From an uncultured Candidatus Saccharibacteria bacterium (GTDB taxonomy: Bacteria > Patescibacteriota > Minisyncoccia > UBA6257 > 2-01-FULL-56-20): a DNA stretch of 64,000 nt. Shown piece by piece: positions 2,688 through 56,316 of the stretch. Numbering within the stretch: position 1 is the first letter of the stretch; every line of letters starts with the position of its first letter. The stretch covers positions 35,074 through 99,073 of the forward strand of contig CAYWDX010000001.1 of NCBI GenBank assembly GCA_964456235.1. The letters run 5' to 3'. Made by a program: the position numbers and the translations under genes. The notes beneath the pieces are model-generated. The model saw only the letters and a program-made list of their open reading frames with translations. It was not told where the DNA came from and ran no database searches.

Positions 2688-3344
2688 TTAGAAGAGATTC
2701 TTGAAAGTGCTTCGGACACGCTTGAAACCCTGCACCGCATCGATGGTCGGTCCGCCTGCCACGTAGATGCCGTTTGCCGTGGTTGCGGCGAGGCCGTCAC
2801 CGAAATTTCTGCCGGCGCGAATGCAGAACGTTGGCAGAATCCCCGGACGTGGCGCAAATTCCACTTGCACGCCGGGGGTGAACAGTAGCCCGCTGCTCGA
2901 ATCGGTGTAGCCGCCCGGGAAAGGTCCGCCGTAGTGCGCGTTCACGTGGCTTCGCGTGTAAGCGAACTGTGCGAAGGCGCCGGCGCGAAGCGAGTGATGG
3001 ACCGCGGGTGCCCGCACGATAAAGCCGCCGCCGCCAGACCAGTCGTACTCATTCGCCGTCACCTTCCCAACATCAGGATCATCCGTCGTGTAACCATGGA
3101 CTGCCGACCGGCCGCCGATGAGGTACACGCCGAAGCTCTGCAGCGGGTTCAGTTCAAGGATACCGCTGCCACCGATGGCCACGCCATTCCGGCCGCCGAG
3201 AAAGCCGGCTCGCATGAACGGGATCGCGGTGCTGCTTGGTGGAGTGGTCGTCTGCGCGATCGCAGAAAGGGATGCGAGAACTGCGAAGGTTGCGAGAATC
3301 AAACAGCGCACAAACCGGATGGGCCGCATAGCTGCTCTCCTCAC
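2688..3344 (-). CDS. Hypothetical exported protein (signal peptide, Gly-rich, C-terminal Phe)
   Basis: N-terminal hydrophobic signal sequence ending AIAQ and a Gly/aromatic-rich body. A GAGGAG RBS precedes the start. I recognise no family. Confidence 0.6.
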   Translation of the reverse strand: MRRAAMRPIRFVRCLILATFAVLASLSAIAQTTTPPSSTAIPFMRAGFLGGRNGVAIGGSGILELNPLQSFGVYLIGGRSAVHGYTTDDPDVGKVTANEYDWSGGGGFIVRAPAVHHSLRAGAFAQFAYTRSHVNAHYGGPFPGGYTDSSSGLLFTPGVQVEFAPRPGILPTFCIRAGRNFGDGLAATTANGIYVAGGPTIDAVQGFKRVRSTFKNLF

Positions 3345-10226: not shown

Positions 10227-10910
10227 TTAAAAATTCCTAAAGATCCTGATGACCTTTTTATAGTCCATCCTCTTCGGGCCGATTGCGAAAATCGAAATGG
10301 TCCCATCGCCAAAATCAAAATTGCCGCCGACAACCGCAAGATGCTCGCTGCGCGTCACCGGGCTTTTGCGGCCGATGAACACCTTGAGGCCCTCGCCCAC
10401 CTTGCCCGCAACGCGCGGGATCCGCTCATCCATATCCTCAAAGTCCCGGATCACCGACTGAAGCTCGTCACGATTCTGCCATTCGAGGCGTTCAACGAGC
10501 GCTTCGAGACCGGCCTTGTAAACCGTTTCCTGCGTGAGATCGGCCGCAACGCCAAGAAGGCCGAGCTCGCGGGAAATTCGAGCGGAAAGTTCTGCCCATG
10601 CATGTTCCTCGAGAAGTTCGCGGAGCGTTGATTCGCGAGGCGCGGGGCGCGCGTTTTCGTGCGCGAGTGCGGTCTGCATCAAGCGGTCCGCTAAAAATTC
10701 ATAGCCAGCGTCGGTGGGAATGCGGCCCGCCGAGTGGTGGGGCTGCATGAGGTAATCCGCATCTTCCAGCGCGTCGAGCTCGAGGCGGATCATCGCCGGC
10801 TTGATGCCAAAATCGAAATTATCAAAAAGCCATCCCGAGCTGATCGGTTCGCCGGTCGTGATAAAGCCCTGGATTGCTGCTTCTAAAATTTGCGCGGTGC
10901 GGTCGGTCAT
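10227..10910 (-). CDS. hrcA: Heat-inducible transcription repressor HrcA (short form, 227 aa)
   Basis: N-terminal winged helix (QILEAAIQGFITTGEPISS) and C-terminal IGPKRMDYKKVI. Operon context with a CIRCE-like site upstream. Confidence 0.75.
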   Translation of the reverse strand: MTDRTAQILEAAIQGFITTGEPISSGWLFDNFDFGIKPAMIRLELDALEDADYLMQPHHSAGRIPTDAGYEFLADRLMQTALAHENARPAPRESTLRELLEEHAWAELSARISRELGLLGVAADLTQETVYKAGLEALVERLEWQNRDELQSVIRDFEDMDERIPRVAGKVGEGLKVFIGRKSPVTRSEHLAVVGGNFDFGDGTISIFAIGPKRMDYKKVIRIFRNF

Positions 10911-25355: not shown

Positions 25356-25445
25356 TCCATTTTAGGATAATTTTAATCTTCCTCATACTTGACAAAATCT
25401 TCTGCCATGCTATAATGGACTTAGAAACTTAACCGGAGGTGATCG

Positions 25446-25757
25446 GTGAAGAAAGAGGAGATGGTAGACATCGCCTTTCTCTCATTCGTGGATGAGTACG
25501 AGAAGCAGAAGAACGAGGTCCGGGAAGGCACTCGGAAAGCAACTGACTGGCATGGGGCGATGAACGTCGCCATGGGGAAGCTCGGCTACATCCCTGAAGG
25601 CAGACTCTATCGGGAGATCTATCGCGCAGTCGCGAAGAGGTCTAGCGAGAGAGCCCAGGTTACCCTAGCGGCCCAGCGCAAAAAAGGCGCGCAGGCCAGC
25701 CAGGATTCGTCGGATGCGTTCCGGCGGCGCCCAGTGCAGGCACAACTACCCTTCTGA
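25446..25757 (+). CDS. Hypothetical small protein (103 aa)
   Basis: GTG start preceded by a GGAGG RBS and followed by an intrinsic terminator. No recognised family. Confidence 0.5.
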   Translation: MKKEEMVDIAFLSFVDEYEKQKNEVREGTRKATDWHGAMNVAMGKLGYIPEGRLYREIYRAVAKRSSERAQVTLAAQRKKGAQASQDSSDAFRRRPVQAQLPF

Positions 25758-35906: not shown

Positions 35907-35945
35907 TGGAAAAATGTTAGCGCCTCTTCTCAATGAATGCAATTG

Positions 35946-36017
35946 AGCCGGAGAGAGGAATCGAACCTCCAACCTCTGCTTTACGAAAGCATTGCTCTGC
36001 CGTTGAGCTACTCCGGC
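35946..36017 (-). tRNA. tRNA-Thr (anticodon CGT)
   Basis: Manual cloverleaf: acceptor GCCGGAG/CTCCGGC, D-arm AGCTCAACGGCAGAGC, anticodon loop TTCGTAA, T-arm GGAGGTTCGATTCCTCT. Confidence 0.8.
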
Positions 36018-36130
36018 AATCCAGTCGCGACGCAGACAATATAGCAAAAACCTGCTCATTTGTGAAGAAAAACTGGACAAATCTCTATTTTTATGATAAT
36101 TTAATTTTCAGCACTAGGAAAGGAGGCACC

Positions 36131-36667
36131 ATGAGGTTACTGCCTATGGTGCTGCTCTGGACCTCGGTTGTAGCGCTGGGCTTCGTGGGCCCGGCGGCTA
36201 TCGCACAAACCCTGAACAACGAGCTGGAGATCGTGCAGCCGAAGAAGGATGAGGGTAAAACCCATGCTATCTTCGCCGCTTCACGTTTTTACCTGCTCGG
36301 AGGTTCGGCGCTCGATGGTGTGAGCACGAGCCTTGTGATGGGCCATCCGAAGATGGCATACCGTGCGGACGGAAGTCCGCTGGCGAGCTATCAGGGTATA
36401 GAGACGGGGTGGGCGAGATCCTTCGGCAGCAAGAACACGTTCGCAGCGGTAGGTGCAAATGTGGCGCTTGATGCCGGCGTGGGTTTTGCCGCTTCGAAGC
36501 TATACCAAAAAGGAGGGCGGTGGCGGTACCTGGCGATTGGCCTAAACGTGCTCAAGGGCACGGACGGGCTCATTGCGGGGATCCGAAACTTCCGATTCGC
36601 GAGCAGCGTCGATAGACGTGTACGCCTCGTTACGGGTTATGCGGGGCCCGTAACATGGTCCCACTAA
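36131..36667 (+). CDS. Hypothetical secreted protein (signal peptide)
   Basis: AGGAGG RBS 6 nt upstream of the ATG at 36131 and signal peptide MRLLPMVLLWTSVVALGFVGPAAIAQ. Codon usage is atypical. The longer ORF from 35933 overlaps tRNA-Thr and is rejected. Confidence 0.6.
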   Translation: MRLLPMVLLWTSVVALGFVGPAAIAQTLNNELEIVQPKKDEGKTHAIFAASRFYLLGGSALDGVSTSLVMGHPKMAYRADGSPLASYQGIETGWARSFGSKNTFAAVGANVALDAGVGFAASKLYQKGGRWRYLAIGLNVLKGTDGLIAGIRNFRFASSVDRRVRLVTGYAGPVTWSH

Positions 36668-36740
36668 ACCCGTTGAAGCCTGGCGGTCCCCACAAGGGCC
36701 GCCAGTTTTCTTATATTATAAAGGCGCCTTCGTGGGATAC

Positions 36741-36770
36741 TTGACAAGGAATGACGGGCTGGAATATAAT
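36741..36770 (+). promoter_or_regulatory. Consensus sigma70 promoter TTGACA-N18-TATAAT
   Basis: Perfect -35 and -10 hexamers at 36741-36746 and 36765-36770. Confidence 0.65.
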
Positions 36771-36777
36771 GCAATCA

Positions 36778-36920
36778 GTTCCCTATCTCGCATCCCTTTC
36801 TTCTCTCAAGTCCGGAGACCCGAGAGCTTCGCCTCTGTAGTTGGTTTCCTAGTGCATCTGCTCTCCCGTCTCCTAAGGCCAGTGACCCACGAAGTCCCTG
36901 GCCTTTATCTTTTTTAGGAG
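36778..36920 (+). ncRNA. Candidate small RNA or structured 5' leader of dnaE (promoter-to-terminator unit of about 140 nt)
   Basis: Predicted TSS near 36778. Ends at hairpin aaggccag...ctggcctt (36885-36905) followed by TATCTTTTTT. No credible ORF and no match to RNA families I know. Confidence 0.4.
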
Positions 36921-36983
36921 TCTTTGTATGATTGAACCGTTACCGTTCTGCATCCTCGCTTGCGGGGGCAACACGCGAACACT

Positions 36984-39900
36984 ATGCCTAAATTCACCCA
37001 TCTTCATACGCATTCGCACTATTCCCTTTTGGACGGCCTCACGAAAATTGATGAACTCGTGAAGCGGACGAAAGAGCTCGGCATGGATGCGATCGCACTC
37101 ACTGATCACGGCGTCCTCTATGGCGCTGTTGAATTTTATAAGGCGGCGAAAAAAGCCGGCGTGAAACCGATCCTGGGTGTCGAGACCTACGTTGCGCCGC
37201 GCGATCGCTTCTCAAAAGAGGCTAGCGAAAAATATTATCACCTGATCCTTCTCGCCGAGAATCAAATCGGCTGGAAGAATTTAATCAAACTTGTCTCCGC
37301 CGCCCACCTCGAAGGGTTCTATTACCGTCCGCGCGTCGATAAGGACATCCTCGCCAAATACCACGAGGGGCTGATCGCGCTTTCAAGCTGCCTCGGCGGG
37401 GAAATCGGACAATGCCTGCTTGCCGGAAAGTATGAGGAGGCAAAGAAAACGGCGCTCCACTACCGCGACATTTTTGGCGAGAAGAATTATTTTTTGGAAA
37501 TCCAGAAGCATCCGCATGTTGCGGATTCTGAACATATTGAGCCCTTGCTCATAAAATTGTCGCAAGAAACGGGGATTCCGCTCGTCGCCACGCAAGACAG
37601 CCACTATCCCCGATCCGAAGACGCGAATTACCACGATGTTTTGCTGGCGGTTCAAACTGGCAACAAGCTTTCTGACGACGACCGAATGACCATGAAAGAA
37701 GATGATTTCTCGCTCTTGTCACCCGAGGCGATGGCAGAGAAATTTGCTTCGGTCAAAGGCGCTGAAGACGCGGTCGCGCGGACCGGCGAGATTGCCGACC
37801 GGTGCAATGTGGAGATCGAGCTCGGCGGCGTGCTGCTTCCTGACTTCCCCAAGCCCGACGGGAAAACTGCAAACGGTTATTTGCGCGAATTAATAGAGGA
37901 ACGTCTGCCTAAAAAATTTCCGCGCGAAATCCAGACGACGGAAATGCATGAGCGCTTGGAGTACGAGTTGGGCGTGATTGAAAAAACAGGTTTTGCCGAT
38001 TACTTTTTGATCGTCCAAGACTTGATCAACTGGGCAAAGACGCACGGCATCGCCGTGGGGCCAGGCCGCGGTTCGGCCGCGGGCAGCTTGGTTTCCTATG
38101 TGCTCGACATCACCGACTTGAATCCCCTCGCGTATGGATTGCTCTTTGAGCGGTTTTTGAATCCCGAGCGCATCCAGATGCCCGACATCGACATCGACTT
38201 TGCGGATGTGCGCCGCGATGAGGTGCTCGCCTACGCGCGCGAAAAATATGGTGGCGACCGCGTGGCGCGCATCATCACCTTTGGAACGATGGCCGCGCGC
38301 GCGGCAGTTCGTGACGCCGGGCGCTCGATGGGCTACTCGTATGCCTTTTGCGACCAAATTGCAAAACTGATCCCCTTCAATCCGACGCAGGGCATGAAGG
38401 AAGGATGGCTCGACGAATGCCTCCAGAAAGTGCAGGAACTGCGCATCATCTACGACACGAACCCAGAGGCAAAAAAACTGATTGATACTGCGCGTAGGTT
38501 AGAGGGCGTCGCGCGACACGCCTCCGTGCACGCGTGCGGCACGGTGATTTCAAAAGAACCGCTCGTGACCCGCGTGCCGCTCCAGTTCGCGCCGCAGGAA
38601 AAAGACGTGATCATCACGCAATTTGAAATGCACGCCGTGGAAGACCTCGGCCTCCTTAAAATCGACCTGCTCGGCTTAAAAAACCTCACCATCATCGAGA
38701 ACACGCTCCGCCTCGTGCGTGAGCTGCACGGGGAGACGATCAACATTTCAAAAATTCCCCTGGACGACAAAAAAACTTTTGCGCTCCTCCAGAAAGCCGA
38801 CACGACCGGCGTCTTCCAGTTTGAAAGCGCGGGGATGCGCCGCTACATGAAAGACATCAAACCGACGGAACTTGAAGACCTGATCGCGCTCGTCGCCTTG
38901 TTCCGTCCCGGCCCGATGGAACTTATCCCGTCTTTTATCAAACGCAAACACGGCGAAGAAAAAATCACCTACCTCCACCCGAAGCTTGAGCCGATCCTCA
39001 AGAACACCTACGGCATCGGCGTGTACCAGGAACAGATGATGCAAATTGCGCGCGACATTGCGGGCTACACGCTTCCTGAAGCCGACACGCTGCGCAAAGC
39101 GATCGGCAAAAAAATCAAATCGCTCCTCGACGAGCAGGGCGAAAAATTGACGAAAGGGATGATTGCGAACGGGATCCCGCCGCGAACCGCGAAGGCCATT
39201 TGGGAGCTCTTCCCCCCGTTCGCGCGTTATGGTTTCAACAAGTCGCATGCCGCTTGCTACGCCCTGATCGGCTACGAGACGGCCTACCTGAAAGCGCATT
39301 ACCCCGAAGAATTCATGGCGGCACTTTTGAACGCAGAGGTGCGCGACATCGACCGTATTTCCTTCCTCATCCAGGAGGCGAAACAGGGAGGCATCATCGT
39401 CCTGCCGCCCGATATCAACGCGAGCTTTGTCGACTTCGCGCCGGAGGGCGACAAAATTCGATTTGGTTTGGAAGCGGTAAAAAATGTTGGCGGCGAGATC
39501 ACGCGCGCGATCATCGAGGAACGCACCCGCCGCGGGCCGTTCAAAAATTTTGAAGACGTGCTCACGCGGATTCAGCACAAGGATCTCAATAAAAAATCGC
39601 TTGAAAGCCTCGTGAAGGCGGGCGCTTTTGATTCGCTCGGCATCGAGCGGAACCAGGCGCTCCGCAATATGGATGATATTTTGCGTTTCGCAAACGCGGC
39701 GCGCAAAGGCGGAAACGGCGCGGCGAACGCGGGCGCGTCACTGTTTGGCGGTGACGTGATGAAGGCACCGACGCTCAAATTGAAAACCGCGCCCCCGGCT
39801 TCGAATGCCGAGCGTCTTGGCTGGGAAAAAGAGTTGATCGGATTCTATCTTTCAGAACATCCGCTTGCTGCATATACTGAAAAATTAAAAGCGGTCGGCG

Positions 39901-41891: not shown

Positions 41892-42001
41892 TGGTCTAAA
41901 TATACCACGCTCACGGCGTCGCATGATATTGACACTATTATTTTATATGTTAGAATATGTACAGCAAGATTCTCAATCCATACTCACAAGGAGGTTCCCC
42001 T

Positions 42002-56178: not shown

Positions 56179-56316
56179 TAGAAAAGTCTTTCGAGGGGGC
56201 TCTCGGAGGCGCTCGCAGCTTGGTCTTTCGCGAAGCGGAAGTGCGAGCGCTGAGAGAGCAGGGTGGCTCGTGCCGCTGGAGCACGAGAACACCCGTACCC
56301 GAGAAAGACTTTTCTA
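56179..56316. repeat. MITE-like structured inverted-repeat element (12-bp terminal inverted repeats, 14 bp with the flanking TA; two internal hairpins), abutting the rpsJ stop codon
   Basis: tagaaaagtctttc at 56179-56192 is the exact reverse complement of gaaagacttttcta at 56303-56316. Inner hairpins: gctctc-ggag-gcgctcgca/tgcgagcgc-tga-gagagc (56199-56259) and gggtg-g-ctcgtgc/gcacgag-aa-caccc (56261-56295). Confidence 0.5.

What the first reader, a model, noticed from the sequence alone, without database searches (positions are those of the whole stretch)
36741..36920. Perfect-consensus promoter followed 140 nt later by an intrinsic terminator upstream of dnaE: sRNA or regulatory leader
TTGACA-N18-TATAAT is the best promoter in the window. 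Its transcript would end at aaggccag...ctggcctt plus TATCTTTTTT, 64 nt before the dnaE ATG. No plausible ORF lies inside. Either a stable sRNA of about 140 nt is made here, or dnaE is expressed by regulated read-through of an attenuator. The region is about 50% GC and lies between a foreign-looking secreted-protein gene and dnaE.
Basis: seen in the sequence. Interest (0 to 1): 0.55.

Follow-up and report, generated by a model that had tools for sequence, protein, structure and literature searches.

The report
Small RNA gene targeting its neighbour
The promoter-terminator pair is real and most likely makes a ~135-nt small RNA. That RNA belongs with the secreted-protein gene upstream of it, whose ribosome-binding site it can base-pair with, and not with dnaE; this would be a new small-RNA/target pair in the little-studied CPR (Patescibacteria) bacteria.

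Summary
TTGACA-N18-TATAAT lies at 36741-36770. A -14.9 kcal/mol hairpin (36875-36905) plus TATCTTTTTT follows, with no ORF inside and no Rfam match.

The dnaE reading fails. None of 160 related dnaE loci has this element. dnaE keeps its own proximal promoter (TTATCT-N16-TATGAT, 36905-36932) and a conserved 36-nt 5' motif downstream of the terminator.

The unit travels with the upstream gene instead (36131-36667, a 178-aa signal-peptide protein with 82 homologs, all Parcubacteria-type, no Pfam family). All 10 genomic contexts I could fetch show the same order: gene, terminator, TTGAC[AT] promoter, 107-158 nt without an ORF, strong terminator. The flanking genes differ, and the next gene is convergent in 7 of 10.

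The RNAs are hardly alignable. Yet each carries 8-11 nt perfectly complementary to the 5'UTR, SD or start codon of its own neighbour in 8 of 9 testable loci. The cognate mean is 9.2 nt against 6.25 nt for non-cognate pairs (exact permutation p=8e-6; Fisher p=1e-8).

In the window, UUUCCUAGUGC plus GCCUCU (36831-36855) pairs with GCACUAGGAAAGGAGGC (36111-36127).

Best reading: a dedicated, co-evolving antisense-type sRNA that masks the neighbour's ribosome-binding site, in the manner of a type I antitoxin. There are no transcript data.

The parts
36074..36100 (+). Putative promoter of gene X (TGGACA-N15-GATAAT). The predicted 5'UTR is about 24 nt.
   Evidence: Read from the sequence. Weaker than the sRNA promoter. 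Inferred, not tested.
36111..36127 (+). Predicted sRNA-binding site in the 5'UTR of the gene X mRNA: GCACUAGGAAA followed by the SD GGAGGC.
   Evidence: 11-nt perfect complement plus 6 more pairs to the sRNA. It is the longest perfect complement among 136 SD-preceded start sites in the window.
36131..36667 (+). Gene X: a 178-aa protein with a signal peptide (…AAIAQ) and a mature part predicted as an amphipathic helical bundle. Function unknown.
   Evidence: Translation. 82 homologs and no Pfam family. AF2 model with pLDDT 85. Only generic helix-bundle fold matches.
36680..36712 (+). Intrinsic terminator of gene X (10-bp stem, then TTTTCTT).
   Evidence: Terminator scan. An equivalent hairpin follows the gene in all other contexts.
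36741..36770 (+). sRNA promoter TTGACA-N18-TATAAT.
   Evidence: 12/12 match. A TTGAC[AT] -35 box sits at the same relative place in 10 of 10 contexts.
36777..36915 (+). Predicted sRNA, about 134-139 nt. It has a 37-nt pyrimidine-rich unpaired 5' part, stem-loop 1 (36814-36873) and a terminator hairpin.
   Evidence: Fold. No ORF and no Rfam family.
36831..36855 (+). Predicted pairing region in the apical part of stem-loop 1: GCCUCU (36831-36836) and UUUCCUAGUGC (36845-36855).
   Evidence: Mean unpaired probability 0.5-0.6.
36875..36915 (+). Intrinsic terminator of the sRNA: hairpin 36875-36905 plus TATCTTTTTT.
36905..36932 (+). Candidate proximal dnaE promoter TTATCT-N16-TATGAT, overlapping the terminator tail. 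It marks the boundary of the sRNA unit.
   Evidence: Positionally equivalent to CTATCT/CTGTCA-N18-TATCAT/TATAAT in 24 related dnaE loci. Only 8/12 to consensus; inferred.

Best explanation
An independent small-RNA gene forms a two-gene module with the gene immediately upstream (gene X, 36131-36667).

The sRNA is transcribed from the consensus promoter at 36741-36770. It starts near 36777 and ends at the hairpin and U-tract at 36875-36915.

The apical region of its first stem-loop (GCCUCU...UUUCCUAGUGC, 36831-36855) base-pairs with 17 nt of the short 5'UTR of the gene X mRNA (GCACUAGGAAAGGAGGC, 36111-36127). That site includes the Shine-Dalgarno sequence. Pairing should block 30S binding, and possibly expose the mRNA to decay, so synthesis of the secreted protein would be held down.

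dnaE is a bystander. It has its own promoter downstream of the sRNA terminator, and the terminator insulates it from the strong sRNA promoter.

Shown: the sequence signals, the conserved gene order, and complementarity that co-varies between genomes. Inferred: that the RNA is made, that it pairs in vivo, and that the effect is repression.
For: 1. Signals. The promoter is 12/12 and the terminator is strong. The other two perfect promoters in the window sit ~25 nt upstream of a GTG- and an ATG-initiated ORF, so such sites look functional here.

2. Linkage to gene X, not dnaE. All 10 contexts share the order gene X homolog, hairpin terminator, TTGAC[AT]-N16-18 and a -10 box, 107-158 nt without a conserved ORF, long terminator hairpin with T-run. 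The contexts are the window, L167, L168, L171, L172, L173, L175, L176, L177 and L178, with protein identity 43-57%. Flanking genes differ everywhere. The next gene is convergent in 7 of 10, so the unit cannot be a leader.

3. Co-varying complementarity to the region -40..+20 of the cognate gene X start. The longest perfect complements are 11, 10, 5, 9, 11, 11, 9, 9 and 8 nt. Non-cognate pairs average 6.25 nt. Per-locus shuffle p values run from 0.001 to 0.1, except 0.985 for L168. Fisher combined p = 1.2e-8. In an exact permutation of sRNA-to-TIR assignments, 3 of 362,880 reach the observed total, p = 8.3e-6. With an 18-nt-window energy score, the cognate TIR ranks first in 6 of 10 rows.

4. 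Site position. The paired sites differ in sequence between genomes but always lie on the SD, the start codon or the 5' end of a 20-30-nt UTR. They are often bipartite and bracket the SD.

5. Specificity in the window. The gene X start site has the longest perfect complement of 136 SD-preceded starts.

6. Accessibility. Pairing segments tend to lie in predicted loops.

7. dnaE independence. No element in 160 dnaE loci, and the proximal dnaE promoter is conserved.
Against: - There are no transcript data of any kind. Start sites are predicted from -10 boxes.
- One locus (L168) has only weak complementarity (5 nt perfect).
- With a permissive long-duplex energy score, the window's gene X start site ranks only 25th of 138.
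- The window's pairing segment has only average predicted accessibility.
- The ten RNAs cannot be aligned into a consensus structure. Shared k-mers are only marginally enriched (CTCCCGT in 4 of 10; shuffles reach that in 11 of 300). Homology of the RNAs therefore rests on position, not sequence.
- Only 10 of about 80 homolog contexts could be fetched.
- The long pyrimidine-rich 5' tail of the window RNA plays no part in this model.
Confidence: 0.6

Rival explanations
1. dnaE leader or attenuator. dnaE would be transcribed from the 36741 promoter, and its expression would be set by regulated read-through of the terminator.
For: The unit is co-directional with dnaE and 68 nt upstream of it. The proximal promoter candidate is weak, 8/12, so read-through from a very strong promoter could add to dnaE mRNA. 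An SD-preceded uORF (36928-37062) would be present only in read-through transcripts.
Against: The element is absent from all 160 related dnaE loci. The same unit occurs downstream of gene X homologs with no dnaE and with a convergent next gene in 7 of 10. No segment upstream in the RNA can pair with the 5' arm of the terminator (reading). No riboswitch or leader family matches.
Confidence: 0.05
2. A real sRNA, but gene X is not its main target. It would act on other mRNAs through its pyrimidine- and UCCC-rich unpaired 5' region as a general anti-SD regulator of the RsaE type, or it would bind a protein. Linkage to gene X would then reflect co-regulation only.
For: The first 37 nt are unpaired, the RNA is 67% pyrimidine, and it holds four UCCC motifs. 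The long-duplex energy ranking puts other start sites ahead of gene X.
Against: This does not explain why complementarity to the cognate gene X start region co-varies across genomes. The pyrimidine-rich tail is not shared by the other nine RNAs.
Confidence: 0.15
3. Cis-acting 3'UTR. Gene X transcripts would read through the first terminator, and the downstream region would fold back on their own 5'UTR and SD, like the icaR 3'UTR-5'UTR interaction in Staphylococcus aureus (from my own knowledge).
For: Same strand, about 180 nt downstream of the stop codon, and complementary to the mRNA's own SD region.
Against: A strong hairpin terminator separates gene and RNA in all 10 contexts, and a near-consensus -35 box with a -10 box follows it each time. 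That is unnecessary for a 3'UTR. The two modes are not mutually exclusive.
Confidence: 0.1
4. No dedicated function. A promoter and terminator left by rearrangement next to a tRNA gene would make a junk transcript or serve only as an insulator.
For: The RNA sequence is not conserved. This intergenic slot is variable in relatives and holds other structured elements there. A 16-nt stretch of the RNA is identical to part of another gene, which hints at recombination.
Against: The whole unit is conserved in position in 10 of 10 genomes despite ~50% protein divergence and complete loss of surrounding synteny. The complementarity is statistically significant.
Confidence: 0.07

Closest known systems
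Trans-encoded type I toxin-antitoxin pairs with a neighbouring, non-overlapping antitoxin sRNA (IstR-1/tisB, OhsC/shoB, OrzO/zorO, AgrB/dinQ in E. coli). Recalled from my own knowledge, not tested here.
   Same: A dedicated sRNA with its own strong promoter is encoded next to its single target. About 10-20 nt of complementarity lies in the target's 5'UTR or translation-initiation region. The pair keeps its linkage while the surrounding genome changes.
   Different: The protein here is 178 aa with a cleavable signal peptide and is well conserved, not a peptide under 60 aa. The sRNA lies downstream in tandem rather than divergent upstream. Toxicity is unknown.
par locus of Enterococcus plasmid pAD1 (RNA I encoding Fst, and RNA II). 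Own knowledge.
   Same: Bipartite sRNA-mRNA pairing that brackets the initiation region. Loop-initiated contacts.
   Different: par RNAs are convergent and share a terminator. Fst has 33 aa.
Classical SD-masking sRNAs such as MicF/ompF or MicA/ompA. Own knowledge.
   Same: Imperfect antisense pairing over the SD or start codon of an mRNA for an exported protein. Size of about 90-140 nt. Rho-independent terminator.
   Different: Those are Hfq-dependent, conserved in sequence, and not linked to their targets. Here the sequence drifts together with the adjacent target.
icaR mRNA 3'UTR-5'UTR interaction (S. aureus). Own knowledge.
   Same: An anti-SD segment downstream of the coding sequence pairs with the same gene's SD.
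   Different: Here a terminator and an independent promoter lie between the gene and the pairing segment.

Membership tests
Any Rfam 15 RNA family | Covariance-model score at or above the gathering threshold | tested here: not met
   The window at gathering threshold gives only tRNAs. 36600-37050 at E<=10 gives only chance-level hits. The equivalent RNAs in L167, L168 and L171 have no hits.
Transcription attenuator or riboswitch leader of dnaE | Conserved upstream of orthologous genes | tested here: not met
   No similarity in 160 dnaE loci by blastn or nhmmer.
Transcription attenuator or riboswitch leader of dnaE | Alternative antiterminator pairing with the terminator's 5' arm | tested here: not met
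   CTGGCC occurs only in the 3' arm. The MFE and centroid folds show no competitor.
Transcription attenuator or riboswitch leader of dnaE | A co-directional regulated gene lies downstream | tested here: not met
   The next gene is convergent in 7 of 10 contexts of the unit.
Base-pairing (antisense-type) sRNA | Own promoter and intrinsic terminator, non-coding | tested here: met
   (sequence signals only).
Base-pairing (antisense-type) sRNA | Complementarity to the target initiation region above chance and maintained in evolution | tested here: met
Base-pairing (antisense-type) sRNA | The transcript is detected and regulates the target | not testable with these tools
   No RNA data. The only other assemblies of this organism (SRR12313479, SRR12313480) are DNA and identical to the window.
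Type I toxin-antitoxin system | Toxin is a small (usually under 60 aa) hydrophobic peptide or a small nuclease | tested here: not met
   178 aa, signal peptide, amphipathic helical bundle.
Type I toxin-antitoxin system | Antitoxin is an sRNA that pairs with the toxin mRNA | tested here: met
   Computational complementarity only.
Type I toxin-antitoxin system | The protein is toxic when the RNA is absent | not testable with these tools
   Needs an expression experiment.

The most novel reading that the evidence does not exclude
A Patescibacteria-specific 'guarded effector' module. A secreted amphipathic helical-bundle protein, possibly membrane-active or toxic, is kept translationally silent by a strongly expressed sRNA that co-evolves with it. 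This would be a type-I-TA-like system built around a full-size Sec-exported protein. It would also be the first sRNA-target pair described in the candidate phyla radiation.
Probability: 0.25. Interest if true: 0.75.

Novelty: new member of a known kind. Interest (0 to 1): 0.6.

Why it matters
Riboregulation in CPR/Patescibacteria is essentially uncharted. Four full-text searches found no paper on sRNAs in these bacteria.

This module gives a concrete sRNA-target pair that can be tested by compensatory mutation in a heterologous host. It has built-in evolutionary support: the RNA sequence drifts, but its complementarity to the neighbour's ribosome-binding site is kept.

It also flags an uncharacterised family of conserved secreted proteins (82 clusters). 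Their tight, dedicated control suggests a dangerous or condition-specific function, which may bear on the episymbiotic lifestyle.

For annotation, it corrects a tempting misreading: that a strong promoter plus terminator upstream of dnaE regulates dnaE.

Tried and rejected
- Rfam scans of the window, the region and related loci: nothing.
- Homology searches for the RNA body by blastn and nhmmer in 160 dnaE loci from genome and metagenome collections: nothing.
- An exact-pattern scan of viral contigs gave only chance hits in unrelated coding DNA.
- MAFFT plus RNAalifold on four of the RNAs gave no consensus structure.
- k-mer enrichment among the ten RNAs is marginal.
- Unrestricted duplexfold energies were uninformative, producing long, loop-rich duplexes. 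I replaced them with 18-nt-window energies and the longest perfect complement.
- Coding reading rejected: no ATG, no SD-preceded start, and no ORF shared among the ten RNAs (inspection).
- Mobile-element terminal-inverted-repeat reading of the complementarity rejected. The repeats are internal to promoter and terminator signals, differ between genomes, and are bipartite and colinear as expected for RNA pairing.
- Protein fold searches gave only generic helix bundles. The afdb50 library was unavailable.
- The only other assemblies of this organism are identical, so there is no strain variation to exploit.

Full report
**Observation.** The window comes from a CPR/Patescibacteria genome of the Paceibacteria or Liptonbacteria type, judged from the record titles of the closest DnaE relatives.

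- At 36741-36770 the + strand reads TTGACA-N18-TATAAT, a 12/12 match.
- The predicted transcript starts near A36777.
- It folds into a 37-nt unpaired, pyrimidine-rich 5' part, a 60-nt stem-loop (GGAGAC-CC-GAGAGC...GCUCUC-CC-GUCUCC) and a terminator hairpin. The hairpin is AAGGCCAG...CUGGCCUU at 36875-36905, dG -14.9 kcal/mol, followed by UAUCUUUUUU. The fold z-score is -2.99 against shuffles.
- There is no ATG inside. The only ORF starts upstream of the -35 box and has no Pfam hit.
- Rfam finds nothing, even at E<=10.
Perfect sites also lie at 25389 (+) and 10967 (-), each about 25 nt upstream of a protein gene. That shows canonical promoters are real in this genome, and that 5'UTRs are normally short.
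- The dnaE ATG is at 36984.

**Is it about dnaE?** I fetched 80 dnaE loci from species genomes and 80 from metagenomes, at 52-84% amino-acid identity.

- Neither blastn nor nhmmer finds the 140-nt body in any of them.
- What is conserved lies downstream of the finding: a 36-nt motif GTTCTGCATCCTCGCTTGCGGGGGCAAC...GAAC at 36945-36980, directly before the dnaE ATG, present in 24 related loci besides the window.
- In those relatives a -10 box (TATCAT, TATTAT, TAAAAT or TATAAT) with a CTGTCA/CTATCT-type -35 box sits 13-30 nt upstream of the motif.
- The window keeps the equivalent promoter: TTATCT (36905-36910), N16, TATGAT (36927-36932). It overlaps the terminator's T-run.
- So dnaE probably has its own promoter, with a start near 36939, and the terminator insulates it from the strong upstream promoter.

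**What it belongs to.** The mechanically listed ORF 35933-36667 overlaps a tRNA-Thr gene on the other strand (35945-36017). The real gene starts at 36131, after the SD GGAGG. It encodes a 178-aa protein with a signal peptide (…AAIAQ) and ends with its own terminator at 36680-36712.

- The protein has no Pfam family.
- It has 7 homologs by single-sequence search and 82 by profile search. All are unnamed, and those with labels come from Parcubacteria or Paceibacterota.
- I could fetch nine further genomic contexts before the look-up cap: L167, L168, L171, L172, L173, L175, L176, L177 and L178. L169 ends at the gene. L170 and L161 are identical to the window.
- Every context with downstream DNA shows the same order:
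  1. the gene;
  2. a hairpin terminator;
  3. TTGACA or TTGACT, 16-18 nt, then a -10 box;
  4. 107-158 nt with no shared ORF;
  5. a long terminator hairpin with a T-run.
- The surrounding genes are different in each genome. Examples are rplJ, thymidylate kinase with gatB, secA, an ATP-cone gene, and RRM/KH genes.
- L177 alone shares the window's upstream neighbours, a peptide-chain release factor gene (PCRF/RF-1 domains) and a ~95-aa gene.
- The next gene downstream is convergent in 7 of 10 contexts.
- The unit is therefore linked to this gene, not to dnaE, and it cannot be a leader.

**How it probably works.** The ten RNAs are barely alignable. Shared k-mers are only marginally enriched: CUCCCGU occurs in 4 of 10, and AGUAGCA or AGUUCYC sits near the 5' end in several.

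I asked whether each RNA is complementary to the initiation region (-40..+20) of its own neighbour.

| Locus | Longest perfect complement (nt) |
|---|---|
| window | 11 |
| L167 | 10 |
| L168 | 5 |
| L171 | 9 |
| L173 | 11 |
| L175 | 11 |
| L176 | 9 |
| L177 | 9 |
| L178 | 8 |

- L172 lacks its 5' end and was excluded. For L178 the start was moved to an SD-preceded TTG.
- Non-cognate pairs average 6.25 nt.
- Dinucleotide-shuffle p values per locus run from 0.001 to 0.1, except 0.985 for L168. Fisher combined p = 1.2e-8.
- In an exact permutation of RNA-to-gene assignments, only 3 of 362,880 reach the observed total, p = 8.3e-6.
- With an 18-nt-window energy score, the cognate start region is the best partner in 6 of 10 rows.
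- The paired sequences differ from genome to genome, but they always fall on the SD, the start codon or the first nucleotides of a 20-30-nt UTR. They are often bipartite, bracketing the SD, and tend to lie in predicted loops of the RNA.
- In the window, mRNA 5'-GCACUAGGAAA-GGAGGC-3' (36111-36127) pairs with sRNA UUUCCUAGUGC (36845-36855) and GCCUCU (36831-36836) across an 8-nt internal loop.
- This is the longest perfect complement among 136 SD-preceded starts in the 64-kb window.
- The gene's own promoter (TGGACA-N15-GATAAT) is weaker than the sRNA's.
- The simplest mechanism is occlusion of the ribosome-binding site by a dedicated, abundant sRNA that co-evolves with its target.

**Caveats.**

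- Everything rests on sequence. No transcript data exist.
- L168 does not fit.
- A permissive long-duplex energy score ranks the window target only 25th of 138.
- The window's pairing segment has only average predicted accessibility.
- Only 10 contexts were available.
- The pyrimidine-rich 5' tail of the window RNA is unexplained. Oddly, it is identical over 16 nt, plus a further 6 nt across a 6-nt indel, to the signal-peptide coding part of another secreted-protein gene on the minus strand at 3264-3279.

**Comparison with known systems** (recalled from my own knowledge). The logic is that of trans-encoded type I toxin-antitoxin pairs (IstR-1/tisB, OhsC/shoB, Orz/Zor), of the bipartite RNA I/RNA II pairing of pAD1 par, and more broadly of SD-masking sRNAs such as MicF. 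Membership in type I TA fails on a defining feature, because the protein is neither small nor a hydrophobic peptide, and toxicity is untested. I therefore file this as a new sRNA family of the neighbour-targeting antisense kind, not as a TA system. A cis 3'UTR-5'UTR mode (icaR-like) is a minor rival, because a terminator and a promoter intervene in all ten contexts.

**Verdict.** The sRNA reading is supported. The dnaE attenuator reading is rejected. The new point is the conserved linkage and co-varying complementarity with the upstream secreted-protein gene. I put the confidence in the full mechanism at about 0.6. It is a new member of a known kind, of moderate to good interest because nothing comparable is described for CPR bacteria.

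Noticed in passing
window 36945-36980: A 36-nt motif, GTTCTGCATCCTCGCTTGCGGGGGCAAC..GAAC, lies directly before the dnaE ATG. It is nearly invariant in 24 related CPR dnaE loci plus the window, always once and always at that place. It can form GUUC/GAAC + UGC/GCA + CCUCG-CUUG-CGGGG; 96.8% of cells are paired. Only one pair covaries (C:G to G:C in L003 and L024). One-nt indels and a 15-nt hairpin insertion in L013 argue against coding. It is not in Rfam. dnaE has no SD. This may be a translational operator or a protein-binding site.
   Followed up: partly
window 56183-56315 (+): A structured RNA with a three-way junction that is not in Rfam. It has 37 predicted pairs, 14 of them with compensatory changes among only 4 sequences. 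In relatives (L001, L002, L003, L051) a copy sits exactly where the window has the sRNA, between tRNA-Thr and the dnaE promoter. A covariance model finds further copies: two each in L051 and L064, plus L038, L022, L098 and L095. It is therefore a multi-copy family of unknown function.
   Followed up: partly
window 36786-36801 and 3264-3279: Sixteen nucleotides of the sRNA's unpaired 5' part (UCUCGCAUCCCUUUCU) are identical in sense to the signal-peptide coding region of the minus-strand gene 2688-3344 (218 aa). The preceding CAGTTC is also shared, across a 6-nt indel. About 0.004 such matches are expected by chance (my arithmetic). The meaning is unknown; shared origin or mimicry are possibilities.
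   Followed up: partly
window 36917-37062: AGGAG lies 7 nt before an ATG (36928) that opens a 44-codon ORF overlapping the dnaE start in another frame. That ATG sits inside the candidate dnaE -10 box (TATGAT). The ORF would therefore exist only on read-through transcripts from the sRNA promoter. It is not conserved as a peptide in relatives: frameshifts in L003, L008 and L057, and stops after 9 codons in L019 and L024.
   Followed up: partly
window 25389-25416 (+) and 10967-10940 (-): Two more perfect TTGACA-N16-TATAAT promoters. Each lies about 25 nt upstream of an ORF: a 103-aa GTG-start ORF at 25446 and a 227-aa ATG-start ORF at 10910, neither checked against any family. Several 11/12 sites also exist, at 41929 (+), 62190 (-) and 58052 (-). 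This CPR genome uses textbook sigma-70 promoters and short 5'UTRs.
   Followed up: partly
L172 ~690-706, L173 ~3140-3160, L177 ~3160-3180, L178 ~3125-3140: In 4 of 10 contexts the sRNA's -35 box is part of a palindrome GTCAA-N3-4-TTGAC. L173 and L177 also share AATCAAGCCAGTT just upstream. This may be an operator for a transcription factor that controls the sRNA.
   Followed up: no
window 35945-36017 (-) and 35933-36667 (+): A tRNA-Thr(CGU) gene lies on the minus strand inside the mechanically listed 244-aa ORF. The true start of the secreted-protein gene is 36131. Related genomes have tRNA-Thr directly next to the dnaE promoter region. Relative to them, the window has the gene X + sRNA module inserted on the tRNA's promoter side.
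   Followed up: partly
window 36131-36667 (protein): An uncharacterised protein family of ~180 aa, with 82 clusters, restricted to Parcubacteria-type genomes. It has a signal peptide and invariant motifs HPxMAYRxDG, ETGWA and GGRWR. The confident AF2 model is a helical bundle with no specific structural relative.
   Followed up: partly
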